Shown: positions 5,267 to 57,646 of the stretch, in pieces
Layout: each line of letters begins with the position of its first letter
Numbering within the stretch: position 1 is the stretch's first letter
Source of the DNA: Gemmatimonadaceae bacterium
GTDB taxonomy: Bacteria; Gemmatimonadota; Gemmatimonadetes; Gemmatimonadales; Gemmatimonadaceae
Direction of reading: 5' to 3'
Length of the DNA: 59,163 nucleotides
Assembly (NCBI GenBank): GCA_035554795.1
Contig: DATMHT010000404.1
Span: 1 to 59,163, forward strand
Notes under the pieces: generated by a model
Told to the model about the DNA's origin: nothing
Database searches by the model: none
What the model saw: only the letters and a program-made list of their open reading frames with translations
Program-made: the position numbers and the translations under genes

Positions 5267-6238
5267 GTCCATCTCCTTCGCCGGGAACAGCAGGCTCCCC
5301 CCGATGGATACCGCCAGCACCGCGGCGACGATGCCGAGCGACGCGACGATCGGCACTTCCACCCACCGCTCGCCGAGCATCTTCACGCCGATGAAGACGA
5401 GGATGACGGCGAGGCCGTAGCGCAGCAGGTAGAACTTCTGCACGACGTGCGCGAGCAGGAAGTAGAGCGAGCGCAGCCCGAGCACGGCGAAGATGTTCGA
5501 CGTGTAGACGAGAAACGGGTCGCGCGTGATCGAGAAGATCGCCGGGATCGAGTCGATGGCGAAGACGAGGTCCGTCACCTCGACCATCACGAGCACGAGC
5601 AGCAGTGGCGACGCCAGCCACCGCCCGTCCGGCCTGCCGCCCTCGCGCACGAAGAAGTGCTTCCCCTCGATCCGCGGCGCGAGCGGGATCACGCGGCGGA
5701 TGAAGCGGGCGACCGCGTTGTCGTCGCCATGGAAGCCGTCGTCGTCGCGGATCGCCATGCGCACGCCCGTGAACACGAGCAGCGCGCCGAAGAGGTAGAG
5801 CACCCAGTGGAAGCGGGTGATCAGCAGCGTGCCGAGGGCGATGAAGGTGCCGCGCATGATCAGCGCGCCGAGGATCCCCCAGAAGAGCACGCGGTGCTGG
5901 TACTTCGCCGGGATGTTGAAGTAGGCGAAGATCAGCACGATCACGAAGATGTTGTCGACGCTCAGCGCCTCCTCGATCACGTAGCCGGTGAGGAAGGTGA
6001 GCGCGGCCGGCGTGCCCGCGTACCAGTTCAGCCCGGCCGCGAAGGCGAGCGCCAGCGTCACCCACACCGCCGTCCACGTCCCCGCTTCCTTCGGCGTGAT
6101 GACGTGCGCCTTGCGGTTGAAGACGCCGAGGTCCAGCGCCAGCATCGCGAGGACGAAGACGTTGAAGCCGACCCAGAACCAGAGGTTGGGCGCGACGTGG
6201 GGCGTTTCGGCGGCGAGAGCGGCGGCGGTGAGGAGCAC
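5261..6238 (-). CDS. TerC/Alx-family integral membrane protein
   Basis: 325 aa and multi-TM. Conserved LSVDNIFV and AIDSIPAIF motifs of the TerC family. GTG start at 6238. Confidence 0.9.
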   Translation of the reverse strand: MLLTAAALAAETPHVAPNLWFWVGFNVFVLAMLALDLGVFNRKAHVITPKEAGTWTAVWVTLALAFAAGLNWYAGTPAALTFLTGYVIEEALSVDNIFVIVLIFAYFNIPAKYQHRVLFWGILGALIMRGTFIALGTLLITRFHWVLYLFGALLVFTGVRMAIRDDDGFHGDDNAVARFIRRVIPLAPRIEGKHFFVREGGRPDGRWLASPLLLVLVMVEVTDLVFAIDSIPAIFSITRDPFLVYTSNIFAVLGLRSLYFLLAHVVQKFYLLRYGLAVILVFIGVKMLGERWVEVPIVASLGIVAAVLAVSIGGSLLFPAKEMDR

Positions 6239-6808: not shown

Positions 6809-7065
6809 CGGAGCTGTCGCGGCCTAACGACGACTGTCGCGCGGAAGCGACGACCCGGCCCCGCCGCGGTCGCGCCGGCGGCGCGGACAATCTGTCCATT
6901 TTCGGCGCGTTCTCCCGGGGAGCGAGAGGGGCGTAGCACCGAGGGCTCTCGTCGCGTGGCCGCCGCACGCTCCTTGCCCCTCGCCCCCCCGCCGTGCCGT
7001 CGTCCGGCGTGACGCCGCCCTCCCGCGTCGCTGCCGACCCGCCGATACCCCCCAGAGTCGTCTCC

Positions 7066-10000
7066 ATGCGCCCCACTTCGACGCACACCCTGCGTAGCGC
7101 CCTGCTGGCGCTTGCGCTCGTTTCCTGTACGTCCGACCGCGCGCTCGGTCCCGATCGGGCCGGCCCGTCGCTCCGCGGCGACGGCCTGACGTCCGGCCCG
7201 TCGCTCGTCATCACCGAGTTCATGTCCGACCCGAGCGCGGTCCTCGACGGCTCGGGCGAGTGGTTCGAGCTCTACAACCCGACGGCGAGCGACATCGACC
7301 TGAGCGGCTATCGGATCGTCTCCGGCTCCGGGTCGCTCGGCACCGAGTCGGCGACGATCAACGCCGCCGCGGGCACCGTGATCGCCCCGGCCGGCGGCTA
7401 CGTCGTGATCGGCAACAACACGAATTTCGCGACGAACGGCGGCGTCACCGAGGCCTACTCGTACGGCGGCTCGATCGCCCTCGCCAACAACACGACCGAC
7501 TGGCTCGCGATCAAGGACCGCAACGGCGTCCTCCTCGACTCGATCGCCTACTCGGCCAGCACCGTGACCGTGGACGCGACGGGCAAGCTGCTCTCGCGGA
7601 CGATCACGTCGCCGTCCATCCAGCCGCCGGCCGGCGTCTCGCGCGCCGTGAAGGACCCGCTCGCCGACAACACGATCGTCGCCGACCCCACCAACTGGAC
7701 GAGCGGCGCGGCCCCCTACGGCGCCGGCGACCTCGGCTCGCCCGGCGCGGTGAACCCGGTCCCGGGTCCGGTGGCGACCGTCGTCCCGCGCATCTCGTAC
7801 GTCGTCCAGAACGCGCCCTTCACGATCACGGCGGTCGGCTACGACGCGAACGGGCTCCAGTCGAACACGACGTTCACCTGGACCAGCTCCAACCCCGAGA
7901 TCGCGACCATCACGTCGGCCGGCCGCGCGACCTTCGTCGCGCCCGGCGTCACGATGCTGACGGCGACGAGCGCGAACGGCGTCAGCGGCACGGCGCCGCT
8001 GTTCGCGGTGCTCCCCGGCGACGTCGCCAGCGTCAGCATCGAGTCGAACGACCCGCTGCGGATGCCGGTCGGCTTCACCAAGCCCGAGTTCCCGACGACG
8101 AAGACGACCACGGGCGCCACGGTCACGCCGACCCTCGTCTGGACGAGCTCCGATCCGTCGGTCGCGACGGTGGACCAGCTCGGCTACGTCACGGGCGTCG
8201 CGGCCGGCGACGTCACGATCAGGGCGACGGTGCAGGGCGGCTACGTCTACGGCATCAAGCAGTTCACCATCGAGCCGGCGACGGCGCCGACGAGCGCCGT
8301 CTACCGTAACCACCTCGAGTTCGGCAAGCCGATCTCGGCGACCGGCGACGGCGTGCTGCTCGCCAAGCCGCAGTACGTTCTCTCGTACAACGCGGCGCGT
8401 GGCGGCGCGAACTGGGTGAGCTGGGACATCAACGGCTCGCAGTTCGGCGCCGTGCCGCGCTGCGACTGCTTCTCCGCCGACCAGCAGCTCCCCGCCGACG
8501 TCTACCACGTCGTGGACTTCGACTACCGCAACGGCGGCTACGACCGCGGCCACATGGTGCAGTCGGAGTCGCGCACGACGACCGACCAGGAGAACGCCGC
8601 GACCTTCCTGCTGACGAACATCCTGCCGCAGGCCGCCGCGAACAATCAGGGGCCGTGGTCGCAGCTCGAGAACTACCTCAACGGCCTGGCGCGCAACGAG
8701 GGCAAGGAAGTCTACGTCGTCGCCGGCGGCATCTACGCCGACAACGCGCCGACGCTCAAGAACGAGGGGCGCGTCGCGATCCCGGACTACACGTGGAAGG
8801 TCGCGGTGGTCGTCCCGGCGGGCACGGGCCTCGCCAACATCCACTCGGCCGCCGACCTGCAGGTGATCGCGGTGAAGATGCCGAACCTCACCGAGGCCAA
8901 CGCCACCGCGAGCGCCCCGAACTTCGCCGGTACCAGGAGCGCGACGGGCAACATCCTCAACACGCCCTGGCAGACGTTCGCGACGACGGTGGACCAGATC
9001 GAGATCGCGACGGGCCTCGACCTGCTCTCCGCGCTTCCCGACAACATCGAGCGTCTCGTCGAGAGCACCGACAAGGCGCCGGTCGCGAACGCGGGCGGCC
9101 CGTACGCCGGAAGCGAGGGCTCGCCGATCACCTTCGACGCGGCCGCGTCGAGCGATCCGGACGCCGGTGACGTGCTCACCTACGCCTGGGACTTCGGCGA
9201 CGGCACCACCGGCACGGGCGCGAACCCGCAGCACGCCTACGCCGACAACGGCAGCTACACCGCGACCGTCACGGTCACCGACGGGACAGGCGTCTACGAT
9301 CAGGCGACGGCGACCGTGACCGTCGCCAACGTGGCGCCGGTGATCACGGGCGTCTCGTTCACGACGGATCCGGTGGCGGTCGGCACCCCGGTGACGATCA
9401 CGACGACGTTCACCGACGCCGGCACCGGCGATACGCACGCCGGCACCACCGTCACCTGGGACGACGGCCAGCTCTCCACGGCGACGGTGACGGAGTCGAG
9501 CGGTTCCGGCACCGCGACGGCGACGCGCACCTTCACGCAGGCCGGCGTGTACGTGGTGACCGTCACGGTGACGGACGACGACGGCGGCGCGGCGACGCAG
9601 ACGAGCCGGCAGTACGTCGTCGTCTACGACCCGACCGCGGGCTTCGTGACCGGCGGCGGCTGGATCGACTCGCCGGCGGGCGCCTACGCGTTCGACCCGA
9701 CGCTCGCGGGCAAGGCGACGTTCGGCTTCGTCGCCCGCTACCAGAAGGGCGCCACCGTGCCCAGCGGCAACACCGAGTTCCAGCTCCGCGAGGGCGGCTT
9801 CGAGTTCTCGAGCACCAGCTACCAGTGGCTCGTCGTCGCCGGCACGAGCAAGGCGCAGTTCAAGGGCACCGGCACGATCGCCGGCCGCCCCGGCAGCTAC
9901 GGCTTCCTGCTCACCGCCGTGGACGACGCGTCCGGCGACCGGTTCCGCATCAAGATCTGGGATACGGGCACGAGCACCGTCGTGTACGACAACCAGAGTG

Positions 10001-10068
10001 GCGCGGACGAGGACTCCGACGCCTCGACGCTGCTCGGCGGCGGCAGCATCACGGTGCACGCGCGGTAG
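7066..10068 (+). CDS. secreted multidomain DNA/RNA non-specific endonuclease lipoprotein (LTD + 2x Big_2 + Endonuclease_NS + 2x PKD + C-terminal domain)
   Basis: Lipobox LALVSC after the ATG at 7066. Lamin-tail-like segment (VITEFMSDP...GEWFELYN). Two Big_2-like repeats ([32 protein letters not shown]). Catalytic DRGHMVQSE...N motif of the Serratia/NucA family. Two PKD repeats ([11 protein letters not shown]...YTATVTVTD; TVTWDDG...[13 protein letters not shown]). Confidence 0.9.
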
Positions 10069-42795: not shown

Positions 42796-42836
42796 AACGA
42801 GAGGGGACCCGGGCCAGGCCCGGGTCCCCTCTCGTT
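42796..42836. terminator. 20-bp perfect hairpin between convergent operon end and lyase-like gene
   Basis: AACGAGAGGGGACCCGGGCC a GGCCCGGGTCCCCTCTCGTT. It lies between the stop at 42758 (+) and the stop at 42861 (-). There is no clear U-tract. Confidence 0.7.
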
Positions 42837-42860: not shown

Positions 42861-44444
42861 TTACTGGCAGCTGCGGTTGCTCAGCTTCCCGCTCACCATC
42901 GTGTTGTCGCAGCCCACCACGATGCCCGTCGGGGCAGAGCCCACGTAGACGCCGTAGCCCGAGGCGCCGGACAGGTCGATGGAGTTGTTGTGGAAGACGT
43001 TCCCGTTGCCCCAGCCGCTCGTGATCGCCTCGACCTTGTAGCCGTTCTGCGCGGCCACCTTGCCGGTGTTGTCGGTGATGATCGCGTTGTTGCCGTAGGC
43101 GTTGACCCACGCCGACGCGTTGCCGCTGCTGTAGCCGGTACCGTCGAACGAGTTGCCCTGTACGACCGTGCCGGTGGTGCCGTCCTTCATGTCCACGGCC
43201 TCGACGGTGATGTTCGGACCGAACTGCGACGAGCGGACCGTGTTCGAGTCGCTGCGATCGGGCACGCCGTTCACCCACTGCGAGCTCGTCGTACCGATGT
43301 AGACGCCCTCGCCGTAGCCCGGCGACGAGCGGCCCGTGTTGTAGACGTGCACGCCGTCGATCAGGTTGTGCTTGCTCGTCTCCTTGAGGACGATGCCCTC
43401 CTGACCCAGGTCGTGGACCGTGAGGTGGCGAGCGGTCACGTTGGAGGAGCCGCCCTTGATGCGGATGCCGACGATGCCGTTGGTGACCGTGAAGCCGTCG
43501 AGCGTCACGTTATGGGCGCCGGAGACGATGAGCACCGTCGCGCTGGTCACGCCGCTCGTTCCGCTCAGCACGGCGTTCGACGAGCCGCAGACCACGATCG
43601 GCGCGCTGCTGCTGCCCGACTTGCCGAGCGTGAACGACCCGCCGTAGGTGCCGTCGGCGAGCTTGATAAGGTCGCCGGCCTGCGCGTTGCTGAGCGCCGA
43701 GGCGAGCGCGCTCGCCGAGCTCACCGACACGAGCCGCGAGTAGCTGTACGCCGAGCAGCCGCTGCTCGAGGAAGACGACGTGGACGTCGTCGAGGTCGAC
43801 GTGCTGCTCACCGTGACGAGCGCCGTCCCGCTCTGGCCGCCGCTGCTGGCGGTGATGGTCGCGGTGCCGCCGGCGACGGCGCTGACGACGCCGGACGCGC
43901 TCACCGTCGCGACGGCGGAGTTCGAGGTCGTCCAGCTGAACGACGCGCCGCTGATCGTGTTGCCCGACCCGTCCTTGGCCTGCGCGCTGAGCTGCGAGGT
44001 CTGACCGGCGAGCAGCGACACGCTGCTCGGCGACACGCTCACGGAGGCGACGGTCGCGCTGCTGGTCGTGCCGCCCGGGACGTAGACGTCCGCGGTGTCG
44101 CTCGCCGACTTGTACGACGCGACGATGCGGGCGTGGCCGGCGGCGCGGGCGCGGACGACGCCGCTCGAGCTGACGACGGCGATGGCCGTGTCGGCGCTGT
44201 GCCAGCTGGCCGTGGCGCTATTGCCGGGCGCGCCCGTGACGGTCGCCTTCAGCGTGTCGAGGATGCCGACGGCCAGGGTGTCGTGCTTCGGCGAAACCGT
44301 CACGTCGAGCGTCGTGCTCGACCGCGAGGAGCGGGGCGAGACGGCGTCCGTTGGATTGGTGATGGTATCGCCGGAGCAACCGGCGGAGGCGAGAATACCG
44401 GACGCGGCAATAACCGCGAACATGACCATGCGCGGAAAATGCAT
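42861..44444 (-). CDS. secreted lipoprotein: 2x Big_2 + Ser/Thr linker + right-handed parallel beta-helix (polysaccharide lyase/hydrolase-like)
   Basis: Start ATG 44444 (MHFPRMVMFAVIAASGILASAGC lipobox), preceded by AGAGGAG. Big_2-like repeats (WHSADTAIAVVSSSG, WTTSNSAVATVSASG). Poly-S/T linker. Beta-helix coils (NVTLDGFTVTNG, NVTARHLTVHD, HNLIDGVHVYN). Confidence 0.8.
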   Translation of the reverse strand: MHFPRMVMFAVIAASGILASAGCSGDTITNPTDAVSPRSSRSSTTLDVTVSPKHDTLAVGILDTLKATVTGAPGNSATASWHSADTAIAVVSSSGVVRARAAGHARIVASYKSASDTADVYVPGGTTSSATVASVSVSPSSVSLLAGQTSQLSAQAKDGSGNTISGASFSWTTSNSAVATVSASGVVSAVAGGTATITASSGGQSGTALVTVSSTSTSTTSTSSSSSSGCSAYSYSRLVSVSSASALASALSNAQAGDLIKLADGTYGGSFTLGKSGSSSAPIVVCGSSNAVLSGTSGVTSATVLIVSGAHNVTLDGFTVTNGIVGIRIKGGSSNVTARHLTVHDLGQEGIVLKETSKHNLIDGVHVYNTGRSSPGYGEGVYIGTTSSQWVNGVPDRSDSNTVRSSQFGPNITVEAVDMKDGTTGTVVQGNSFDGTGYSSGNASAWVNAYGNNAIITDNTGKVAAQNGYKVEAITSGWGNGNVFHNNSIDLSGASGYGVYVGSAPTGIVVGCDNTMVSGKLSNRSCQ

Positions 44445-44460
44445 GCGACACTCCTCTGGT

Positions 44461-44592
44461 CCGTTCGGCGGCCCGACTGGCATGGCCGCCTCGCACCAGT
44501 GGAGGACGGCTGTAGCCTCGTAGCTTTGCGTCCCCGGCTTTCGCCGGGTTTGCCTTTGTCGCTGGCCCCCGAGGGGGTGTCGCGATCCTGCC
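44461..44592 (-). promoter_or_regulatory. c-di-GMP-I (GEMM-I) riboswitch, copy 1
   Basis: The minus-strand RNA reads ...GCGACAAAGGCAAACCCGGCGAAAGCCGGGGACGCAAAGCUACGAGGCUAC...GCCAGUCGGGCCGCCGAACGG. This has the GGCAAACC-stem-GAAA-stem-GGGACGCAAAGC core and the 3' segment of GEMM-I. It ends ~17 nt before the ATG at 44444. Boundaries are approximate. Confidence 0.85.
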
Positions 44593-44948
44593 GATCAATT
44601 TGGCCCAATCGACCTTGTCGGCTTCCGAGGGGGTGCATCCCCCACTCAGTCAACGAACGGCTCGAGCCGCTCGTCACGCCGGAGGTCCACGAAGAACGTA
44701 GACAAAATGTCTGGGTCGAACAAGTGCTAATACAACATTTGTTGTTTCTAACGTTAGGCGACGGACCGAATTGTTCTGCAGCTGTCGAGATCGTGCGCCC
44801 GTACTGCCGAGCCCATGGGCGGCCTAACGCTGTGAACTCGTCTCGGCCGCGGCGGCGGAAGGTGGTGCAGGCGCGCGGCCGAAACGGGGCGGGCGCCCGC
44901 CGCGGCAGCGATGCCTAACGGCACCCTGGTCCCGGCCTAACGCCTAAC

Positions 44949-45008
44949 GGGCAGCCTGCCGGGCGGCCTGCCGGGCAGCCTGACGGGCGGCCTGCCGGGC
45001 AGCCAGAC
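44949..45008. repeat. 12-bp tandem repeat x5 (GGGC[A/G]GCCTGCC)
   Basis: GGGCAGCCTGCC GGGCGGCCTGCC GGGCAGCCTGAC GGGCGGCCTGCC GGGCAGCCAGAC. Non-coding, immediately 3' of the epimerase stop (45024, minus strand). Confidence 0.9.
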
Positions 45009-46093: not shown

Positions 46094-47245
46094 CTAGGGC
46101 GCGGCGCTGGCGTCGGCCCACTGCTCGACCGAGCGCAGGAGCGACGGCACCTGGGCGCGCGACGTGGCGCCGAGCTTGTCGAGCACCTTCTGCGTGTGAT
46201 GACGCGCGGTGTGCGGACTGACCCCGAGTGTGTGCGCGATGTCGGCGTTCGACTTCCCGTGCAGGAGCAGATGCGTGACGTCCACCTCGCGATCGGTGAG
46301 ACCGTAGGTCCGCCGCAGCGCTTCGACCGGCAGCGCCGTCACCGCGGTGGATGCGTCGGCGGGCGAGTCCACGCGCATCAGGCGCTCGAGCGAGACGGCG
46401 ATCGCCGCCGCGCCACCCGGCCCGTCCGGCGCGATCTCGCAGCAGCGGACGCGATAGCGCCCCGTGTCGCTGCGCAGCTCGATCGGCTGCGCGACGAAGT
46501 CGCGCAGGGCGGCGGGACAGTCGCCGCCGCCGCTCAGCGCCGCTGCCTCGCGCATCCGGAATCCCATCGCCGCGCGCCACAGCTCGTTGCGGATGCGGGT
46601 GCGCTGCGGCTCGGCCGCGAGCAGCCGCGCGAGCGCGGCGTTCTCATACAGCACGCTCCCGTCGCGGGCGAAGAGCAGGGTGCCGGCGCTGAGCGCGTCG
46701 AGCAGGCGGGTGAGCGCACGGTGGCTCGGCGCCGCGAACATCCGCTCGCGCGCGCCGGCGACGAACGCCGGCATGACGAGCCGCAGCGTCTCGAGGTGGC
46801 CCCGCGTCTCCGCCGCCGAGCGCGGCCCGTGGTAGTGGCAGGCGAGGCTCGCGTTGACGCCCGGAAGGTCGAGCGCGGCGGTCATGCCGACCGCCTCGTA
46901 GCGCGCGCCGTCCACCGCGACCTCGGAGATCTCGCCGTGACCGGCGCGGCGGCACCAGACGCGTGTGCGCGGCGGCGGCAGGTCGTCGGCGCCCGAGGTC
47001 GGAGACGCCTTCGGCGACTGCACGATGCGGTGCAGCAGCTCGTGGGAGATGCCGTCGCCGAAGGCGCGGACCGCGCGGCCGCACTGGAGGACGAGCACCG
47101 CGTTGGCGGCGTCGGCGAGCCGGGTGAGCGCCGCGGTCGCCGCGCGTCCCCATCGCTCGTCGTCGTCGTGTGCCGCGGCCGAGAGCAGAGCGTCGAGTGC
47201 CGTGGTGAAGCGCTCGCGGCCGTCGGGGGAAAGCGTGAGATCCAT
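46094..47245 (-). CDS. LuxR/GerE-family transcriptional regulator with uncharacterised N-terminal domain (paralogue 1)
   Basis: 383 aa (ATG 47245). C-terminal HTH LTDREVDVTHLLLHGKSNADIAHTLGVSPHTARHHTQKVLDKLG. It shares YEAVGMTA, LLFA..G..LY and GRY.(V/L)RCCEI motifs with the next gene. Confidence 0.8.
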   Translation of the reverse strand: MDLTLSPDGRERFTTALDALLSAAAHDDDERWGRAATAALTRLADAANAVLVLQCGRAVRAFGDGISHELLHRIVQSPKASPTSGADDLPPPRTRVWCRRAGHGEISEVAVDGARYEAVGMTAALDLPGVNASLACHYHGPRSAAETRGHLETLRLVMPAFVAGARERMFAAPSHRALTRLLDALSAGTLLFARDGSVLYENAALARLLAAEPQRTRIRNELWRAAMGFRMREAAALSGGGDCPAALRDFVAQPIELRSDTGRYRVRCCEIAPDGPGGAAAIAVSLERLMRVDSPADASTAVTALPVEALRRTYGLTDREVDVTHLLLHGKSNADIAHTLGVSPHTARHHTQKVLDKLGATSRAQVPSLLRSVEQWADASAAP

Positions 47246-47397
47246 CGTGCGGATCTCCGGGAGCGGGTGGTCCGGCGCGCGTTCCGGCGCCGGTACGTCA
47301 CGCACTGCTGCACGCCGACGACCGGCGACGGTCACCGAGCGGCCCAGCCGATTATAGCGAACTCCGGAGGGGCCGCAAGCCAGGCAGCGGCGGCCCG

Positions 47398-48549
47398 CTA
47401 GGCGTCGCCGGCCCGAGGCGGCGCCAGGTGCGCGTGCAGGACGGCCGGGACCTCGGCGCGCGAGCGCACGCCGAGCTTCTCGAGCACGTGCTCCGTGTGC
47501 CGGCGGGCCGTGAACTCGCTGATGCCGAGCTGGCGCGCCACCTCGGCGTTCGGCTTGCCGGCGAGCAGGAGCCTCGCCACGTCGAGCTCGCGCGTGGTCA
47601 GGCCGTAGCGGGTGCGCAGGGTCGAGGCCGCGCCCTCGAGAGGGTCCGCGGTGCTCCCGATCGTCGCGACCAACTCGATCGTCGTCGCGACGAGCGCCGG
47701 CGGCCCCGGCTCCTCGGGCGGGATCTCGCAGCAGCGCAGCACGTACCGGCCGTGCGTGGTCTCGACGGTGCACGAGTCGGTGGCGAGCGTTCGCTGGTCG
47801 GCGTCGCTCTGCCGCGTCGCCGGACGATCCGCCAGGAAGGTGCGGACGAGCTGCGCCATCTCCTCACGAACGAGGTCCCGGGCGGGGTCTCCGCCGAGGA
47901 GGCGCGTGAGGGCCGTCGTCGCGTAGAGCGGCTCGCCGTTGCCGGCGAAGAGCAGGGCGCTCGCGCCCGATGCCTCGAGCAGGCGCGCGGCGAGTCGCCG
48001 CGTTCCTGCGGCGCTGGTGCGCACGCGCGCCGCGGAGGCGAAGGCTGGAAGGAGGCTTCGCAGGAGCTCGAGGCGGCGTTGCGTCTGAATCGCGTCACGG
48101 TGCGGCGACAGCCGACATACCGCCGTCGCGAACACACCCGGAAGCCCGAGCTCCGCGGTCATCCCGACCGCCTCGTAGGCGGCGCCGTCCGCCGCGACGC
48201 CGGCGACCGCCTCCAGGGCGCGGTGGGGCACGTGCTGGGTCGTCGTCGCGGGGCGACACCAGGCGTAGGCGCGGTAGGGCGAGTGGCCGATGTCGTCGGG
48301 GATCGCCGGCGCGTTGGGCGCGCGCAGCGCGCCGCGGACCATGCCGGCCGAGACGCCGGCCGCGAGGGGCCCGATCGTCTCGCCTCCCTGGAGCACGAGG
48401 GTGACGTCGTCCGCGCCGGTGAGGGACGCCAGGGCGCGAACGACCCCGCGCTCCCACACCTCGAGCGGGGCGCTCAGTGACAGCGCGAACAACGCGGCGA
48501 GAACGTCTCCAATGCTGGAGAGGACGTTAGGCGCGAGCGTGTCGTCCAT
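47398..48549 (-). CDS. LuxR/GerE-family transcriptional regulator (paralogue 2, same 383-aa length)
   Basis: ATG 48549 (MDDTLAP). C-terminal HTH LTTRELDVARLLLAGKPNAEVARQLGISEFTARRHTEHVLEKLG. Confidence 0.8.
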   Translation of the reverse strand: MDDTLAPNVLSSIGDVLAALFALSLSAPLEVWERGVVRALASLTGADDVTLVLQGGETIGPLAAGVSAGMVRGALRAPNAPAIPDDIGHSPYRAYAWCRPATTTQHVPHRALEAVAGVAADGAAYEAVGMTAELGLPGVFATAVCRLSPHRDAIQTQRRLELLRSLLPAFASAARVRTSAAGTRRLAARLLEASGASALLFAGNGEPLYATTALTRLLGGDPARDLVREEMAQLVRTFLADRPATRQSDADQRTLATDSCTVETTHGRYVLRCCEIPPEEPGPPALVATTIELVATIGSTADPLEGAASTLRTRYGLTTRELDVARLLLAGKPNAEVARQLGISEFTARRHTEHVLEKLGVRSRAEVPAVLHAHLAPPRAGDA

Positions 48550-48739
48550 GCGTGGCTCCGTCGGAGCGCGGTGCCTGGCTACGGGCGTCGGTACCGGGGC
48601 GCGGCGATCGCCTAACGGTGGATTCCGGCCGCTCGCGCCTGACGCGGGCACGATTCGCACCGGAACTCGTGAGGCAGATCACCAAAAAAATAGGCGAAAT
48701 GACCAATGGCTCGAATTAAGGGACTCCCATATCGTGACG

Positions 48740-48845
48740 CGCGTCACAAACCCTTCTCCGAGAAGAGCACCCCGGCTGCGAGGCCGGTCCGCAGAGCCAC
48801 AGGTCTCCGATGCTGGAGACAGCTGGGCCGCCGAAGAGAGTTGAA
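48740..48845 (+). promoter_or_regulatory. structured 5' leader with partial resemblance to the two GEMM-I elements (candidate divergent riboswitch)
   Basis: CACAAACC-hairpin-...CGCAGAGCCACAGG...CAGCUGGGCCGCCGAAG compares with copy 1/2 GGCAAACC-hairpin-GGGACGCAAAGC(U/C)ACGAGG...(A/G)GUCGGG(CC/UU)GCCGAAC. The GNRA loop and the GGGAC are not conserved. Confidence 0.3.
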
Positions 48846-51006: not shown

Positions 51007-52608
51007 TCAGAGCCTCTTCACGGTAACCGTCGCGGTCCGCGTGTTCTGCTGACCGGCCGTGTCGGTGACCGTCAGCGTCACCGTGTAGCTGCCGGCCGCC
51101 TTGTAAGTGTACAGGAGCTTGGTGAGCGAGCTGCCCGTCGCCGCGGAGGTGCCGTCGCCGAAGTCCCAGGTGTACGACGCGATGCCGGCGTCGTCGGTGG
51201 AACCCGACGCGTCGAACTTGCACTTGCCGCGCGCGCAGCTCCACGTGAAGCTCGCCACCGGCGGCTGGTCCACCGTCGCCGGCGGAGGCGGCGATGTCAC
51301 CACTGTCGTCGTGTCCGGCGGCGGCGTGGTGGTGTCGGGGGCGGGCTGCATCGTGCCCGACGTGATGCTCGAGTACAGGAGCAGGTTCGCGGTGCCCGAC
51401 GGTACGGACGACAGCACGTTCGGCGTCGCGCCGCCGACGATCGCCGACGTCACCTGCGCCGGCGTCGCGCCCGGGTTGGCCGAGAGATACAGCGCGGCCA
51501 CGCCGGCGACGTGCGGCGACGCCATGGAGGTGCCGCCCATGACCGTGGAGCTCGTGTCGTCCACGTAGGAGGCGGAGCGGATCGCCGAACCGGGGGCGAA
51601 GAGGTCCACGCACGGGCCGAAGTTCGAGTACCCGGACATGCCGTCGCCATTCCACGACGCGCCGACCGTGAGCGCCTCGGGCGTGCTCGCGGGTGAGTAG
51701 TTGCAGGCGTCGGTCGAGCTGTTCCCGGCGGCGACGGCGTACACGACGCCCGCCTTGATCGAGCTCTGGACGGCCGAGTTGAGGGTCGAGGAGACGCTGC
51801 CCGTCAAGGACATGTTGGCGACGGCGGGGAGCGTGCGATGCTGCGTGACCCAGTCGATGCCGGCGATGATGCCGCTGTACGAGCCGTAGCCCGTGCAGTC
51901 GAGCACCCGGACCGAGTAGAGCGTGGCGCCCTTCGCCACGCCGTAGCTCTTCCCGCCGACGATGCCGGCGACGTGCGTGCCGTGGCCGCTGCAGTCGCTC
52001 GTGCCGTTGCCGTCGTTGATCGCCGAGTAGGCGCCGAGCGCGCGCCCGCCGAACTCCGCGTGCGTCGCGCGGATCCCCGAATCGAGGATGTAGACGCTCA
52101 CGCGGGCGCCCGTGGTGGCGTAGCCGTAGCTCTTGTCCAGCGGCAGCGTGCGCTGGTCGAGGCGATCGAGCCCCCAGTCGGGCGAGCTCTGCACGTCGCT
52201 CGCGCGCACGCGCTGGTCGGCCTCGACGCCCGCGACCATCGGGTTCCGCGCCAGCGCGTCCACCGCCGCGGCGGGGAAGTGCGCGGCGAAGCCCTTGATC
52301 GCGCTCGTGTAGGTGTAGCGCAGCGTGCCGCCCAGGGTGGTCGCCAACTCGCGTGCCCGCGCCGGCACGTCGCGTACCGAATCGCGGAAGACGACGATAT
52401 ACTCGTCGGGGATGACGTCGCTGGAGGAGCCCGCCGCGACCGCCGAACGGCGAAGCGTCGGCGCGGCCGCGGGGGCCGGTGGCGCGCTGGCGTCCTGACA
52501 GGCGGCGAGCGTGGCGAGGGTGCAGAGGGCGAGCGCGGTGCGCACACGCGCGCGGCGGTCGGGACGCGCGCCAACGAGCGCGGTCCCGCGACGGGTCGTC
52601 GCGGACAT
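51007..52608 (-). CDS. secreted subtilisin-like serine protease (S8, proteinase K-like) with I9 propeptide and C-terminal PKD domain
   Basis: Lipobox LATLAAC. Catalytic triad VYILDSGI (Asp), GHGTHVAG (His), GGTSMASPHVAG (Ser). C-terminal PKD (YTWDFGDGTSA...YTVTLTVTD). Confidence 0.92.
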   Translation of the reverse strand: MSATTRRGTALVGARPDRRARVRTALALCTLATLAACQDASAPPAPAAAPTLRRSAVAAGSSSDVIPDEYIVVFRDSVRDVPARARELATTLGGTLRYTYTSAIKGFAAHFPAAAVDALARNPMVAGVEADQRVRASDVQSSPDWGLDRLDQRTLPLDKSYGYATTGARVSVYILDSGIRATHAEFGGRALGAYSAINDGNGTSDCSGHGTHVAGIVGGKSYGVAKGATLYSVRVLDCTGYGSYSGIIAGIDWVTQHRTLPAVANMSLTGSVSSTLNSAVQSSIKAGVVYAVAAGNSSTDACNYSPASTPEALTVGASWNGDGMSGYSNFGPCVDLFAPGSAIRSASYVDDTSSTVMGGTSMASPHVAGVAALYLSANPGATPAQVTSAIVGGATPNVLSSVPSGTANLLLYSSITSGTMQPAPDTTTPPPDTTTVVTSPPPPATVDQPPVASFTWSCARGKCKFDASGSTDDAGIASYTWDFGDGTSAATGSSLTKLLYTYKAAGSYTVTLTVTDTAGQQNTRTATVTVKRL

Positions 52609-52620
52609 GGGGCATCTCCG

Positions 52621-52775
52621 TCGGTTCGTTCGGCAACCCGACCGGCGTGGCCGTCGCGCGGCATCGTCGCCGTGCGATCGTGCGGTAGCCTCGTGGCTTT
52701 GCGTCCCCGCCTTTCGACGGGTTTGCCCTTGTCGCGACCCCGTGCCCGCGTGGGCGGTGGAGGTGCGATCCTGCC
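52621..52775 (-). promoter_or_regulatory. c-di-GMP-I (GEMM-I) riboswitch, copy 2
   Basis: The minus-strand RNA reads ...GCGACAAGGGCAAACCCGUCGAAAGGCGGGGACGCAAAGCCACGAGGCUAC...GCCGGUCGGGUUGCCGAACGAACC, followed by GGAG and the AUG at 52608. The tetraloop stem differs from copy 1 by a G-C to U-G change. Boundaries are approximate. Confidence 0.85.
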
Positions 52776-55984: not shown

Positions 55985-56878
55985 TCAGACCGTGCGCATC
56001 GGCCCGGACGGCCGCCGCGTTCCGAGCACCTTGCCGCCCACCTCGGCGCGCGAGTGGACGTTCAGCTTGAGCAGGACGCTCTCGGTGTGATGGCGCGCCG
56101 TGTGGGGACTGATCTCGAGCGTCTTCGCGATCTCGCCGTTGGAGTGTCCCTGCGCCAGCAGGAGCGCGACACCCGCCTCGCAGGCGGTGAGGTTGAATCG
56201 GTTGGCGAGCGCGAGCGGTGAGGGCAGCGACAGGGTGAGTCGCTCGAGCGTGACGATCACCGCGTGCTCGGCGCCGGGGAGCGCGTCCCCCAGCGGCGTC
56301 GCGTGCATCCGGTAGCGCGCGGTGGCGGTGCGCGTCTCGCGAGTCGCGGGACCGCATCCGGTCGCGGCGCCACCCGTGCCGCCACCATCGTCGTGGGCGC
56401 CGTCGCGGTGGGAGTCGCTGCCGTGGGCGCCGTTGCCGTGGTCTCGCGTGCCGGCCGGCGCGTGCCGCGGCAGCGAGAGGGCGAAGTAGCGCATCTCGCG
56501 GAGCAGCGCGCCGCGGTCGTCGTCCTCCAGCAGCGTGCGCTCGAGCGACGGGTTGCGGTAGAACATGCTCCCGGCGTCGTCGACGAGCAGCACTCCTTCG
56601 GTGAGGAAGTCGAGGACGCGCAGGAGCGCGCGGCCGGGCCGCTCGAGCTCCAGTGCCGGTAGGCGCACGGCGTCGGAGTGTGGCGTCAGCTCGATCGCGC
56701 GATCGGTGAAGCGACGGTCGGCGTGCTGGACGTGGTGGTGGAGCGACGCGAGCGAGTCGGTGAGCGACGGGCGGAGCACGGATTGCCTCCACTGAGCAGC
56801 GCCGCCGGGCGCCGTCGGCGTGGCCATGCGGGACGTCCATGACGCGACCGCTGCCACGATCGTGATCACGCGGCCCAT
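55985..56878 (-). CDS. LuxR/GerE-family transcriptional regulator (shorter third paralogue)
   Basis: C-terminal HTH LTACEAGVALLLAQGHSNGEIAKTLEISPHTARHHTESVLLKLN. The central VLLVDDAGSMFYRNPSLERTLL resembles LLFARDGSVLYENAALARLL of paralogue 1. Start ATG 56878 or 56827. Confidence 0.75.
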   Translation of the reverse strand: MGRVITIVAAVASWTSRMATPTAPGGAAQWRQSVLRPSLTDSLASLHHHVQHADRRFTDRAIELTPHSDAVRLPALELERPGRALLRVLDFLTEGVLLVDDAGSMFYRNPSLERTLLEDDDRGALLREMRYFALSLPRHAPAGTRDHGNGAHGSDSHRDGAHDDGGGTGGAATGCGPATRETRTATARYRMHATPLGDALPGAEHAVIVTLERLTLSLPSPLALANRFNLTACEAGVALLLAQGHSNGEIAKTLEISPHTARHHTESVLLKLNVHSRAEVGGKVLGTRRPSGPMRTV

Positions 56879-57109
56879 GGCCGCGGTCTGGCCGCGCGCA
56901 GGCGTCGTCGCCACGCCGGGGGCCAGTGCGGGTTGGATATAGTGCGCCAGATCACAATGGACAAGAGGGGGTCTCCCTATGGCGAGGGCCGAACCGGCGA
57001 GCTCTCGGAGACTTTCTAGGCAATTTTGCCCATCCGGGTCGGCGGACGACTGGCTATCTAGGCGCTGCCGTCCTCGCTTGCTCGCCGTCTTCGATCCCCG
57101 GGGTGCCAG

Positions 57110-57436
57110 ATGCCGGCGAACCCGGACCTCGCCAGCAAGAGCACGTTCGCCCGCGCCGTCGATGCGCTCTGTCTCTCGCGCGACGAGATCGCCCGCGCGC
57201 TGGGGCTGACGCCCGTGCTCCTCGACGCGTACACGGCGGGCACCGAGCCCGTCCCCTCCATCACGCAGCTCGAGCTCGTGGACGTGCTCAAGTCGCACGA
57301 GGCGATGCTCGGCGCGGCCGCGGGATCGCTGTACGAGGAGGCGATGCATCGCCTCGAGAGCAGCGGTCTTTCCCACCCGGTCTCCGGTCGCGAGCCGCCG
57401 CCGCCGCCGCATCCATCGTCGCGCCCGCGCGCCTAA
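57110..57436 (+). CDS. small hypothetical protein with possible HTH
   Basis: 108 aa with high GC3. LSRDEIARALGLTPVLLDAYTAG looks like a helix-turn-helix. Divergent from the third LuxR gene. Confidence 0.5.
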   Translation: MPANPDLASKSTFARAVDALCLSRDEIARALGLTPVLLDAYTAGTEPVPSITQLELVDVLKSHEAMLGAAAGSLYEEAMHRLESSGLSHPVSGREPPPPPHPSSRPRA

Positions 57437-57646
57437 CCGCTGGCGTGGCGGCAACCGCGCGCTGGCGCGCGCGGTGAGCGGGTGTGGCGGGTGCGGGCTC
57501 CTCGTCCGCTCGCCGGCGGCCGCTCCTTGACACGTGCCCATGTCCGCCAGATGTTCGCGCGGCGAGTCGCCCACTGGAGAGGGCCGGCTCCGGCACGAAC
57601 GCGCGACGCGGCGCGAACCTCGTCCGATCATCATCAGGAGCAGCGC

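What the first reader, a model, noticed from the sequence alone, without database searches (positions are those of the whole stretch)
44461..44592. GEMM-I c-di-GMP riboswitch controlling a secreted beta-helix (polysaccharide lyase-like) lipoprotein
**What the sequence shows.** On the minus strand, the leader of the 42861..44444 gene reads CGACAAAGGCAAACCCGGCGAAAGCCGGGGACGCAAAGCUACGAGGCUAC...GCCAGUCGGGCCGCCGAACGG.

**Match to GEMM-I.** As I recall it, the Vibrio Vc2 aptamer reads ACAGGGCAAACCAUUCGAAAGAGUGGGACGCAAAGCCUCC...GGUAGCGGGGUUACCGAUGG. The leader has the same core:
- GGCAAACC.
- A 6-bp stem (CCCGGC/GCCGGG) capped by a GAAA tetraloop.
- GGGACGCAAAGC.
- A similar 3' closing segment.

**Expression platform.** The conserved 3' segment ends about 17 nt before the ATG, directly abutting the SD-like AGAGGAG. 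This suggests translational control.

**Effect on the gene model.** The upstream in-frame ATG at 44483 lies inside the aptamer, so I reject it as the start.
Basis: partly seen in the sequence, partly recalled or inferred. Interest (0 to 1): 0.8.

Follow-up and report, generated by a model that had tools for sequence, protein, structure and literature searches.

The report
c-di-GMP riboswitch before a polysaccharide lyase
This is a genuine but ordinary c-di-GMP-sensing riboswitch in the leader of a gene for a surface-anchored polysaccharide lyase in a Gemmatimonadota bacterium, built so that it can hide or expose the ribosome-binding site.

Summary
Rfam places a full-length GEMM-I-clan aptamer at 44463-44563 (-), 69.6 bits, E 2e-14.

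**Class.** The best-scoring model is the "c-di-GMP-I-GGC" variant (RF03167). The diagnostic nucleotide is A, not G, so the pocket is the canonical G20/A47/C92. Near-identical relatives flip between RF03167 and RF01051, so the label is not informative.

**Gene.** The gene at 42861-44444 encodes a lipoprotein with two Big_2 domains. Its C-terminal beta-helix matches the PsAly alginate lyase (PDB 6KFN, E 2e-39), with the catalytic Tyr/Lys and cation ligands conserved. It lies at the edge of an exopolysaccharide locus. Five of six distinct orthologues also carry a GEMM-I aptamer.

**Control.** No terminator follows the aptamer, and the Shine-Dalgarno (SD) sequence lies 5 nt after it. More than 119 near-identical aptamers occur in Gemmatimonadota genomes, almost all 13-33 nt before a lipoprotein start codon. 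Most share an upstream hairpin whose 5' arm is an anti-SD. This hairpin competes with a long helix made of P1, a covarying P1 extension and the anti-SD:SD pairing.

**Direction.** I infer that c-di-GMP represses translation (about 55-60%).

**Verdict.** A new member of a known class, of modest interest.

The parts
44463..44563 (-). GEMM-I (c-di-GMP-I clan) aptamer with helices P1, P2 (GAAA tetraloop) and P3.
   Evidence: cmscan RF03167, 69.6 bits (gathering score 59), E 2e-14, model 1-80/80. The helices are 90% paired, with covariation in 45 relatives versus 15-38% for slid controls.
44554..44554 (-). G equivalent to Vc2 G20, which contacts one guanine of c-di-GMP.
   Evidence: Aligned to the G just 5' of the GC pair of P2. 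It lies 27 nt before the A47 equivalent, the same spacing as Vc2 and Vc1 (PMC4744006). A G here, not an A, argues against the c-AMP-GMP type.
44527..44527 (-). A equivalent to Vc2 A47. This is the position that is G in the RF03167 'GGC' consensus.
   Evidence: In the alignment the model reads GACGC-G-AA and the sequence reads GACGC-A-AA, which is scored as a mismatch.
44468..44468 (-). C equivalent to Vc2 C92, which makes a Watson-Crick pair with the second guanine.
   Evidence: Aligned to model position 75, in the junction GC before the P1 3' strand.
44482..44514 (-). A 33-nt insertion at the tip of P3. It folds as its own hairpin (GCCG-U-CCUC...GAGG-CGGC) and contains a second CCUCC.
   Evidence: Shown as an insert in the alignment. 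The hairpin forms in the aptamer-enforced fold. Inserts of 19-41 nt occur in relatives.
44582..44592 (-). Conserved leader motif GGCAGGAUCGC.
   Evidence: Present 34-48 nt (one at 56) before the aptamer core in 44 of 86 related leaders. Its UCGC pairs with the GCGA at the aptamer's 5' edge in most predicted folds. The role of the GGCAGG part is unexplained.
44566..44577 (-). P0 hairpin (CCCC-loop-GGGG) just upstream of the aptamer. The 5' arm is an anti-SD and the 3' arm is a G-rich SD mimic.
   Evidence: Fold of the upstream region. The same hairpin type recurs across the family. Arm-to-arm complementarity is better in native than in swapped combinations, 0 of 5000 permutations.
44571..44583 (-). 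Anti-SD strand GCGACACCCCCUC.
   Evidence: Complementary to 44445-44456: 11 pairs, one mismatch and one bulge (read from the sequence). It pairs with that segment in the aptamer-enforced minimum-energy fold.
44562..44567 (-). 5' strand of the P1 extension (GGCCAG).
   Evidence: It faces CGGACC (44458-44463) across an AA bulge. 4 of 6 positions pair in this window. The three positions next to P1 covary in relatives: CG/UA/GC/GU.
44458..44463 (-). Linker, the 3' strand of the P1 extension (CGGACC).
   Evidence: The conserved 'CGRAC' linker is seen in W1, W2 and L003.
44451..44457 (-). Shine-Dalgarno sequence AGAGGAG, 6 nt before the AUG.
   Evidence: Read directly from the sequence. Predicted pairing probability is 0.8-1.0 in both the free and the aptamer-enforced ensembles.
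44445..44456 (-). SD-side strand of the sequestering helix, GAGGAGUGUCGC. It runs up to the base before the AUG.
42861..44444 (-). Regulated gene: a 527-aa lipoprotein with a signal peptide and Cys, two Big_2 domains and a PsAly-like beta-helix polysaccharide lyase domain.
   Evidence: Pfam. PDB 6KFN alginate lyase, E 2.2e-39 over residues 13-281 of the C-terminal query, with GEGvY and E-x-x-D-x-K conserved (residues defined in PMC6796002). Orthologues carry Beta_helix / Pel9A-like domains.
42805..42821 (-). Terminator-like hairpin 40 nt after the stop codon.
   Evidence: The T-run is weak. It suggests a monocistronic unit.

Best explanation
**What it is.** The leader of the 42861-44444 (-) gene is a class I c-di-GMP riboswitch (GEMM-I) with the canonical binding pocket (G20/A47/C92 equivalents). 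It belongs to a sequence type that is very abundant in Gemmatimonadota.

**What it controls.** It acts on translation initiation of a surface lipoprotein. That protein's catalytic domain is a PsAly-like beta-helix polyuronate lyase, encoded at the edge of an exopolysaccharide locus.

**Proposed switch.**
- Without ligand, the leader folds into a local hairpin (P0). Its 5' arm is the anti-SD and its 3' arm is an SD mimic.
- In most relatives this hairpin is closed by UCGC:GCGA, which captures the 5' strand of P1. The SD is then free.
- With c-di-GMP bound, P1 forms and is prolonged across an AA bulge by a P1 extension.
- This opens P0, and the released anti-SD (GCGACACCCCCUC, 44583-44571) pairs with GAGGAGUGUCGC (44456-44445). 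That pairing buries the SD up to the base before the AUG. High c-di-GMP would therefore lower synthesis of the lyase.

**Shown.** The aptamer, its pocket nucleotides, the gene's identity, the conserved riboswitch-gene link, the two alternative pairings and their co-variation.

**Inferred.** That c-di-GMP is the ligand in vivo, that control is translational, and the direction (OFF).

**My probabilities.**
- Genuine c-di-GMP aptamer: 0.95.
- Translational control: 0.8.
- OFF direction: 0.55-0.6.
For: **Aptamer.**
- RF03167 hit at 69.6 bits, E 2e-14.
- The pocket nucleotides are read from that alignment, with residue roles taken from PMC4744006 and PMC5888326.
- In 45 relatives, 90% of cells are paired against 85% in shuffles (0/500) and 15-38% when slid. 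Both-side changes occur in P2 (GC/UG/CG/UA) and P3 (UA/CG/UG).

**Link to the gene.**
- 9 of 10 loci encoding orthologues have a GEMM-I hit directly upstream. These represent 5 of 6 distinct proteins.

**Gene identity.**
-. Exopolysaccharide locus context. Orthologues lie in similar loci.

**Translational platform.**
- No terminator follows the aptamer.
- In 87 related leaders the start codon lies 13-33 nt after the aptamer in all but three.
- Upstream-versus-SD duplex energy is -19.9 kcal/mol for native pairs and -16.9 for swapped pairs, 0 of 2000 permutations.
- 5' arm versus 3' arm, 5' arm versus SD, and 3' arm resembling the SD all exceed swapped controls: 0, 0 and 1 of 5000 permutations.
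- P1-extension pairs covary: CG 15 / UA 12 / GU 3 / GC 2, and so on.
- In this window, the aptamer-enforced fold forms the anti-SD:SD helix.

**Direction.**
- The sequestering helix is nested outside P1 and continuous with it, while P0 competes with P1 for GCGA.
- Across 73 leaders, the mean probability that the SD is paired is 0.79 with the aptamer enforced and 0.67 with P1 penalised. 35 leaders rise by more than 0.1 and 3 fall. Wilcoxon p = 4e-8.
Against: - No experiment exists. Ligand identity rests on sequence homology alone.
- Rfam's best model is the GGC variant, not RF01051. The RF01051 score for this site is hidden by clan competition.
- For this window's own leader the thermodynamic model shows no direction. 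The SD is predicted to be paired both with the aptamer enforced (0.83) and with P1 penalised (0.82). In the unconstrained fold it is sequestered partly by a second CCUCC in the P3 insert.
- The window's P1 extension is imperfect (4 of 6 pairs).
- The second aptamer of the window goes the other way in the same computation (0.21 versus 0.72).
- Effect sizes of native versus swapped energies are modest (1-3 kcal/mol).
- The aptamer fold is never the nearest-neighbour minimum: it lies 1-18 kcal/mol above the unconstrained minimum across the 73 leaders, 13 for this window's leader. This is expected, but it limits such modelling.
- The closest orthologue (L001, 56% identity) has no riboswitch.
Confidence: 0.72

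Rival explanations
1. Same aptamer and translational control, but an ON switch. Without ligand the SD is held by an anti-SD (the P0 5' arm or the CCUCC in the P3 insert). c-di-GMP binding locks the P3 insert and P0 into their own hairpins and frees the SD, so the lyase is made together with the exopolysaccharide.
For: - In this window's unconstrained fold, the SD pairs with the CCUCC of the P3 insert. That pairing needs the P3 3' strand to be mis-paired, so it is incompatible with the aptamer.
- When the aptamer is enforced, the insert sequesters its own CCUC with GAGG.
- The window's second aptamer shows less SD pairing with the aptamer enforced.
- Many exopolysaccharide operons co-express a lyase or hydrolase (general knowledge).
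Against: - With the aptamer enforced, the upstream anti-SD still takes the SD in the same fold.
- CCUCC-bearing inserts are not a family feature, whereas the upstream anti-SD hairpin is.
- The sequestering helix is coaxial with P1, and the family trend is towards more pairing with the aptamer formed.
Confidence: 0.2
2. It is a member of the c-di-GMP-I-GGC variant class, as Rfam labels it. It therefore senses a ligand other than c-di-GMP, or c-di-GMP with altered affinity.
For: RF03167 is the top-scoring model for this site and for the second aptamer.
Against: - The nucleotide that distinguishes the two consensus sequences (GACGC-G-AA versus GACGC-A-AA) is A here, in both window hits.
- Aptamers with the same 40-nt core, all with A at that position, are assigned to RF01051 (up to 81 bits) or to RF03167 from locus to locus. 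11 double hits were hidden.
- No aptamer with G at that position was found among 129 related loci.
Confidence: 0.05
3. The aptamer acts on transcription or mRNA fate rather than on ribosome binding. For example, the ligand-dependent fold could expose or hide a Rho loading site or an RNase site.
For: - No experiment distinguishes these options.
- SD occlusion often couples to Rho termination (general knowledge).
- Orthologues with the A20-type aptamer have 77-111-nt leaders carrying GC-rich hairpins and U-runs, which suggests terminators.
Against: - No intrinsic terminator lies between the aptamer and the AUG.
- Only 18 nt separate the aptamer and the AUG.
- Co-variation directly involves the SD flanks.
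Confidence: 0.08

Closest known systems
c-di-GMP-I riboswitch (GEMM-I, Rfam RF01051), for example Vc2 of Vibrio cholerae
   Same: - Three-helix junction and GAAA tetraloop on P2.
- A conserved CUA...AUG internal loop in P3, at the place of the tetraloop receptor.
- G20, A47, C92 and the C44-G83 equivalents.
- Location in the 5' leader of a gene for an extracellular function.
   Different: - High-GC, lineage-specific sequence flavour.
- A 33-nt insertion at the tip of P3.
- Very short core P1 (2 bp), prolonged across an AA bulge.
- Most relatives have an A.C pair at the base of P3.
- A conserved upstream anti-SD hairpin that is not part of the Rfam model.
c-di-GMP-I-GGC variant (Rfam RF03167; described, as I recall, by Weinberg et al. 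2017 PNAS, which I could not read here)
   Same: It is the best-scoring covariance model. It shares the GC-rich P2, the short P1 and tolerance of a long P3 loop.
   Different: The defining G at the A47 position is absent: A in this window. I therefore do not file it as a GGC variant.
c-AMP-GMP riboswitch (GEMM-Ib, Geobacter)
   Same: Same fold and clan. Orthologues of this very gene in other Gemmatimonadota, and the window's third aptamer, carry the A-for-G change at position 20 that is typical of that class.
   Different: This aptamer has G at position 20.
PsAly alginate lyase of Paenibacillus sp. FPU-7 (PDB 6KFN; CAZy family PL31, as I recall)
   Same: The C-terminal 270 aa align at E 2e-39. 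[quoted passage not shown]
   Different: - Subsite residues differ: His154, Arg156, Asp250 and Lys252 are replaced by Val, Lys, Asn and Tyr. The substrate is therefore probably not alginate itself.
- The protein has an added lipoprotein signal and two Big_2 domains.
Translational riboswitches in which the closing helix P1 runs on into an SD-sequestering helix (general design of OFF switches)
   Same: The ligand-stabilised P1 is continuous with the helix that covers the SD. A competing local hairpin acts as the anti-sequestrator.
   Different: The anti-SD lies 5' of the aptamer, inside a hairpin with an SD mimic. The switch is therefore a strand swap spanning the whole aptamer.

Membership tests
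c-di-GMP-I / GEMM-I clan (CL00126) | Covariance-model score at or above the curated gathering score. | tested here: met
   RF03167 scores 69.6 bits against 59. A second clan model also passed but was hidden by clan competition. The RF01051 score itself was not shown.
c-di-GMP-I / GEMM-I clan (CL00126) | P2 capped by a GNRA tetraloop, P3 with a receptor-like internal loop, and a three-way junction. | tested here: met
   CCCGGC-GAAA-GCCGGG. GGCUAC...CAUGCC is conserved in relatives. Helices are supported by co-variation. Tertiary docking was not testable.
c-di-GMP-I (canonical specificity) | G20, A47 and C92 equivalents, plus the interhelical C44-G83 pair. | tested here: met
   G at 44554, A at 44527, C at 44468. 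C and G are present at the C44 and G83 positions (alignment; residue roles from PMC4744006 and PMC5888326).
c-di-GMP-I (canonical specificity) | Binds c-di-GMP with high affinity and selectivity. | not testable with these tools
   Needs in-line probing or ITC.
c-di-GMP-I-GGC variant (RF03167) | G in place of A47 (consensus GACGC-G-AA). | tested here: not met
   The sequence has A. The label flips among identical cores.
c-AMP-GMP riboswitch (GEMM-Ib) | A in place of G20. | tested here: not met
   G at 44554. By contrast, A is present in the third aptamer of the window and in the aptamers of L002, L004, L007 and L009.
Translational riboswitch | The SD or start codon can be sequestered by a structure that depends on the aptamer's state, with no intervening terminator. 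| tested here: inconclusive
   The alternative pairings exist and co-vary, and there is no terminator. The dependence on ligand is inferred only.
PsAly-like beta-helix polysaccharide lyase | Sequence similarity across the catalytic domain, with the catalytic Tyr and Lys and the cation-binding Glu, Glu and Asp. | tested here: met
   6KFN at E 2.2e-39. GEGvY and E-a-v-D-m-K align with E181/Y184 and E216/D219/K221 (PMC6796002). Activity and substrate were not testable.
Bacterial lipoprotein | Signal peptide followed by a lipobox Cys. | tested here: inconclusive
   The N-terminus reads MHFPRMVMFAVIAASGILASAG-C. Position -3 is Ser rather than Leu. 90% or more of the proteins behind related aptamers have a Cys at the same place. 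No predictor was run.

The most novel reading that the evidence does not exclude
Gemmatimonadota carry a phylum-specific, modular GEMM-I leader: the GGCAGGAUCGC motif, an anti-SD / SD-mimic hairpin, the aptamer, and an SD 5-20 nt downstream.

This module has been copied in front of a large set of surface lipoprotein genes (Big_2 proteins, lyases, subtilases, glycosidases). It works as a strand-swap translational OFF switch.

Alongside it sits a sister set of A20-type aptamers. One is in this window, and several stand in front of orthologues of this very lyase. They would imply that c-AMP-GMP signalling also operates in this phylum.

Neither the upstream module nor the A20 set appears in the literature I could search.
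Probability: 0.4. Interest if true: 0.45.

Novelty: new member of a known kind. Interest (0 to 1): 0.3.

Why it matters
- **Gene model.** It fixes the start codon at 44444.
- **Physiology.** It links c-di-GMP directly to turnover of an exopolysaccharide in a phylum that is almost unstudied experimentally.
- **Annotation warning.** Rfam's 'GGC variant' label is assigned to canonical-pocket aptamers in this lineage. Automated annotation could therefore wrongly suggest an orphan ligand.
- **Testable regulon.** The family-wide leader architecture gives a compact, testable model for how dozens of surface lipoproteins per genome are tied to one second messenger.

Tried and rejected
- **Reading the variant papers.** I tried to read the paper that defined the GGC/UAU variants (PNAS 2017, PMC5358364) and Nelson 2015 (PMC4418907). 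Neither is held. The meaning of 'GGC' therefore rests on comparing the two Rfam consensus lines and on my memory.
- **RF01051 score.** It could not be obtained for this site because the tool keeps only the best clan member.
- **Degenerate second aptamer.** I looked for one in 44600-44900 and found none.
- **Promoter.** The sigma-70 scan found nothing. An A/T-rich stretch precedes GGCAGG in many leaders, but no consensus emerged, so the transcription start is unknown.
- **CCUCC in the P3 insert as the main anti-SD.** I considered this and rejected it as the family mechanism, because inserts in relatives are plain GC hairpins. It may still contribute in this window.
- **GGCAGG pairing with GCCGCC of the aptamer.** I considered this. 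The variable positions do not compensate, so it is not supported.
- **L001.** The closest orthologue has no GEMM-like hit even at E = 10.
- **Literature.** A search for Gemmatimonadota plus c-di-GMP riboswitch found nothing relevant.

Full report
**1. Observation**

A scan of the whole window against all 4227 Rfam families gives three hits, all in the c-di-GMP-I clan:

| Location | Strand | Model | Bits | Gathering score | E-value |
|---|---|---|---|---|---|
| 44463-44563 | - | RF03167 | 69.6 | 59 | 2e-14 |
| 52628-52736 | - | RF03167 | 60.2 | 59 | 9.6e-12 |
| 48756-48835 | + | RF01051 | 46.8 | 35 | 4.8e-06 |

- The first hit matches model positions 1-80 of 80.
- Two further clan matches that passed their own thresholds were hidden by clan competition.
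- A permissive scan of 44300-45000 adds nothing credible.

**2. Which class**

The top model is the 'c-di-GMP-I-GGC' variant, not RF01051. The two consensus lines printed differ at the base just 3' of P2: GACGC-A-AA in RF01051 and GACGC-G-AA in RF03167.

That base corresponds to A47 of the Vibrio Vc2 aptamer. Together with G20 and C92 it contacts the ligand (PMC4744006, PMC5888326). The mapping onto the window is as follows:

- G20 equivalent at 44554.
- A47 equivalent at 44527, 27 nt later, the same spacing as in Vc2 and Vc1.
- C92 equivalent at 44468.
- The C44-G83 interhelical pair has C and G at the expected places.

The pocket is therefore G/A/C, the canonical c-di-GMP signature. The defining G of the GGC variant is not met. 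My reading of what 'GGC' stands for comes from the two consensus lines and from memory, because I could not read the defining paper.

Further evidence against taking the label at face value:

- Among 18 related loci, aptamers that share the same 40-nt core, all with A at that position, are labelled RF01051 (up to 81 bits) or RF03167 (up to 70.6 bits) from case to case. Eleven double hits were hidden.
- No aptamer with G at that position turned up among 129 related loci.
- The RF03167 label thus reflects lineage flavour, not the pocket. That flavour is a GC-rich P2, a short P1 and, as I read the alignments, a long P3 loop.

**3. The gene**

- The ORF from 44444 begins MHFPRMVMFAVIAASGILASAGC. 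This is a signal peptide ending in Cys.
- Pfam finds two Big_2 domains and a sub-threshold Chondroitinase_B match.
- The C-terminal 300 aa match a single solved structure strongly: 6KFN, the PsAly alginate lyase, at E 2.2e-39 over nearly its full length.
- PsAly is a right-handed beta-helix, polymannuronate-preferring endolyase. Its catalytic residues are Tyr184 and Lys221, and its cation ligands are Glu181, Glu216 and Asp219 (PMC6796002). With the +34 offset between chain and paper numbering, all five are conserved here (GEGvY and E-a-v-D-m-K).
- Four subsite residues differ (His154, Arg156, Asp250, Lys252). The chemistry is probably uronate beta-elimination, but the substrate need not be alginate.
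- The gene sits at the end of a 30-kb exopolysaccharide locus. That locus encodes a priming sugar transferase, a Wzz/GNVR kinase, Wzt, several GT4 enzymes, deacetylases, Wzy_C and WecG.
- Orthologues lie next to WecG, Wzy_C, GT2/GT4 and methyltransferase genes.
- A terminator-like hairpin follows the stop codon.
- The in-frame ATG at 44483 is inside P3. The SD, the signal peptide and the orthologue N-termini support 44444 as the start.

**4. Conservation of the link**

- Homologues are all from Gemmatimonadota. The window has 72% G+C.
- I fetched contigs for six full-length orthologues.
- Nine of the ten loci, representing five of the six distinct proteins, have a GEMM-I hit directly upstream. 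The exception is the closest orthologue, L001.
- L003 has the same type as the window: G20, with the SD 22 nt after the aptamer.
- L002, L004-6, L007-8 and L009-10 have an A at position 20 and leaders of 77-111 nt.

**5. A lineage-wide family**

Every listed record is from Gemmatimonadota, namely Gemmatimonadales and Longimicrobiaceae, apart from one deposited as an unidentified bacterium.
- In 87 unique leaders with a recognisable start, the start codon lies 13-33 nt after the aptamer in all but three.
- The proteins behind the aptamers almost all begin with a signal peptide and a Cys.
- Of the 66 proteins scanned, 42 contain Big_2 domains. Others are beta-helix proteins, subtilases, polysaccharide lyases, glycoside hydrolases and M23/M15 peptidases.
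- On an ungapped alignment of 45 distinct members, the aptamer helices plus a 3-bp extension of P1 score as follows:

| Measure | Observed | Control |
|---|---|---|
| Cells forming a standard pair | 90% | 85% in shuffles (0/500); 15-38% when slid |
| Covariation score | 0.157 | 0.079 in shuffles |

Both-side changes occur in P2 (GC/UG/CG/UA), in P3 (UA/CG/UG) and in the P1 extension (CG/UA/GU/GC).

**6. Expression platform**

No terminator follows the aptamer.

- A motif GGCAGGAUCGC, present in 44 of 86 leaders, 34-48 nt (one at 56) before the core.
- Then a hairpin (P0) whose 5' arm is CCCUCC-like (an anti-SD) and whose 3' arm is GAGGG-like (an SD mimic).
- Then GCGAC, which contains the 5' strand of P1.

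In most predicted folds, UCGC of the motif pairs with GCGA. The extended P0 therefore captures the P1 strand. The same upstream nucleotides can instead pair with the region downstream of the aptamer:

- The bases next to P1 pair with the linker, forming the P1 extension.
- The P0 5' arm pairs with the SD and its flanks.

Alignment-free tests support both alternatives.

| Comparison | Native | Swapped | Permutations reaching native |
|---|---|---|---|
| Whole upstream region vs SD region (kcal/mol) | -19.9 | -16.9 | 0 of 2000 |
| P0 5' arm vs 3' arm (kcal/mol) | -11.4 | -9.4 | 0 of 5000 |
| P0 5' arm vs SD region (kcal/mol) | -12.7 | -11.5 | 0 of 5000 |
| Longest shared substring, 3' arm vs SD region (nt) | 4.5 | 4.1 | 1 of 5000 |

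In this window:

- The motif is at 44592-44582.
- P0 is at 44577-44566.
- The anti-SD strand GCGACACCCCCUC (44583-44571) can form 11 pairs with GAGGAGUGUCGC (44456-44445).
- With the aptamer enforced, this helix is part of the minimum-energy fold.

**7. Direction**

- The sequestering helix is nested outside P1 and continuous with it, whereas P0 competes with P1. Ligand-stabilised P1 should therefore favour SD sequestration, which makes this an OFF switch.
- Across 73 leaders, the mean probability that the SD is paired is 0.79 with the aptamer enforced and 0.67 with P1 penalised. Thirty-five leaders rise by more than 0.1 and three fall (p = 4e-8).

This is modest support, and the window's own leader gives no signal:

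- Its values are 0.83 versus 0.82.
- Its unconstrained fold sequesters the SD partly through a second CCUCC in the 33-nt P3 insert.
- The second aptamer of the window goes the other way in the same computation.

I therefore commit to OFF at about 55-60% and keep ON as the main rival. Repressing a matrix-degrading lyase, and the subtilase behind the second aptamer, at high c-di-GMP would make biological sense. Co-expression of a lyase with exopolysaccharide synthesis is also common.

**8. Comparison and novelty**

- This is a member of the c-di-GMP-I class.
- It is not a GGC variant, because that defining feature was tested and not met.
- It is not a c-AMP-GMP type, because it has G at position 20.
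- It is a new member of a known kind.
- The points of some interest are the Rfam mislabelling, the size of the Gemmatimonadota lipoprotein regulon, and the conserved upstream anti-SD module. I found no mention of that module in the searchable literature.

**9. Limits**

- There is no binding or reporter data.
- The transcription start is unknown.
- Nearest-neighbour folding ignores tertiary and ligand energy.
- The family set is biased by the search pattern and contains related sequences, so the permutation counts are not true probabilities.

Noticed in passing
window 52628-52736 (-), gene 51007-52608 (-): A second aptamer of the same type (RF03167 60.2 bits; G20/A47/C92). It has the same GGCAGGAUCGC motif and an ACCUCC anti-SD upstream, and an SD 12 nt downstream. 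It stands in front of a secreted subtilase (Inhibitor_I9 + Peptidase_S8 + PKD).
   Followed up: partly
window 48756-48835 (+), gene start about 48903 (+): A third GEMM-I aptamer (RF01051 46.8 bits) with A at the G20 position, a GCGA tetraloop and CAGAGC after P2. This is the signature associated with c-AMP-GMP-sensing variants. It precedes a lipoprotein of about 640 aa with no Pfam match. The mechanical ORF start at 48810 lies inside the aptamer, and 48903 (MRKRYVVAATVAAVAVATAC...) is the likely start.
   Followed up: partly
L002:3832-3923, L004:1585-1676, L007:2789-2889, L009:826-917: Orthologues of the same lyase gene in other Gemmatimonadota are preceded by A20-type GEMM-I aptamers. Their leaders are 77-111 nt long and carry GC-rich hairpins and U-runs. 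The same gene therefore appears to be wired to a different pocket variant and a different platform in different lineages. Ten distinct A20/G48 aptamers were seen among the fetched loci.
   Followed up: partly
window 44582-44592 (-) and 44 of 86 related leaders: The GGCAGG half of the conserved GGCAGGAUCGC motif has no partner that I could support. It is preceded by an A/T-richer stretch, so it may mark the transcription start.
   Followed up: partly
L094 (three aptamers within 3 kb), L033:5346-5434 and 5530-5619, L048, L023, L026, L037: Many Gemmatimonadota loci hold two or three GEMM-I aptamers. In L033 two lie 96 nt apart, possibly in tandem. In L094 three paralogous lipoprotein genes each have their own aptamer.
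   Followed up: no
window 13243-41805: A large exopolysaccharide locus: Bac_transf, Wzz/GNVR tyrosine-kinase type, Wzt ABC ATPase, several GT4 enzymes, a methyltransferase, PIG-L and Polysacc_deac_1 deacetylases, Wzy_C and WecG.
   Followed up: partly
window 46094-47773 (-), 47398-48660 (-), 55985-57634 (-): Three LuxR-type (GerE) regulators with long N-terminal regions that match no Pfam family are interspersed with the three riboswitch-controlled genes. The first two ORFs overlap as called, so their starts need revision.
   Followed up: no
window 44533-44548 (+): The terminator-like site reported on the plus strand is simply the reverse complement of the P2 hairpin and the A-rich junction. 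It is an artefact of the aptamer. The long plus-strand ORF 42990-44918 is likewise spurious.
   Followed up: yes
window 6994-10068 (+): A 1024-aa protein that combines a lamin-tail domain, Big_2, a non-specific DNA/RNA endonuclease domain and PKD domains. It may be an extracellular nuclease.
   Followed up: no
L063:3929-4003 (-): A SAM_alpha (RF00521) hit at 42 bits (gathering score 36) in a Gemmatimonadales genome. That family is named for Alphaproteobacteria.
   Followed up: no
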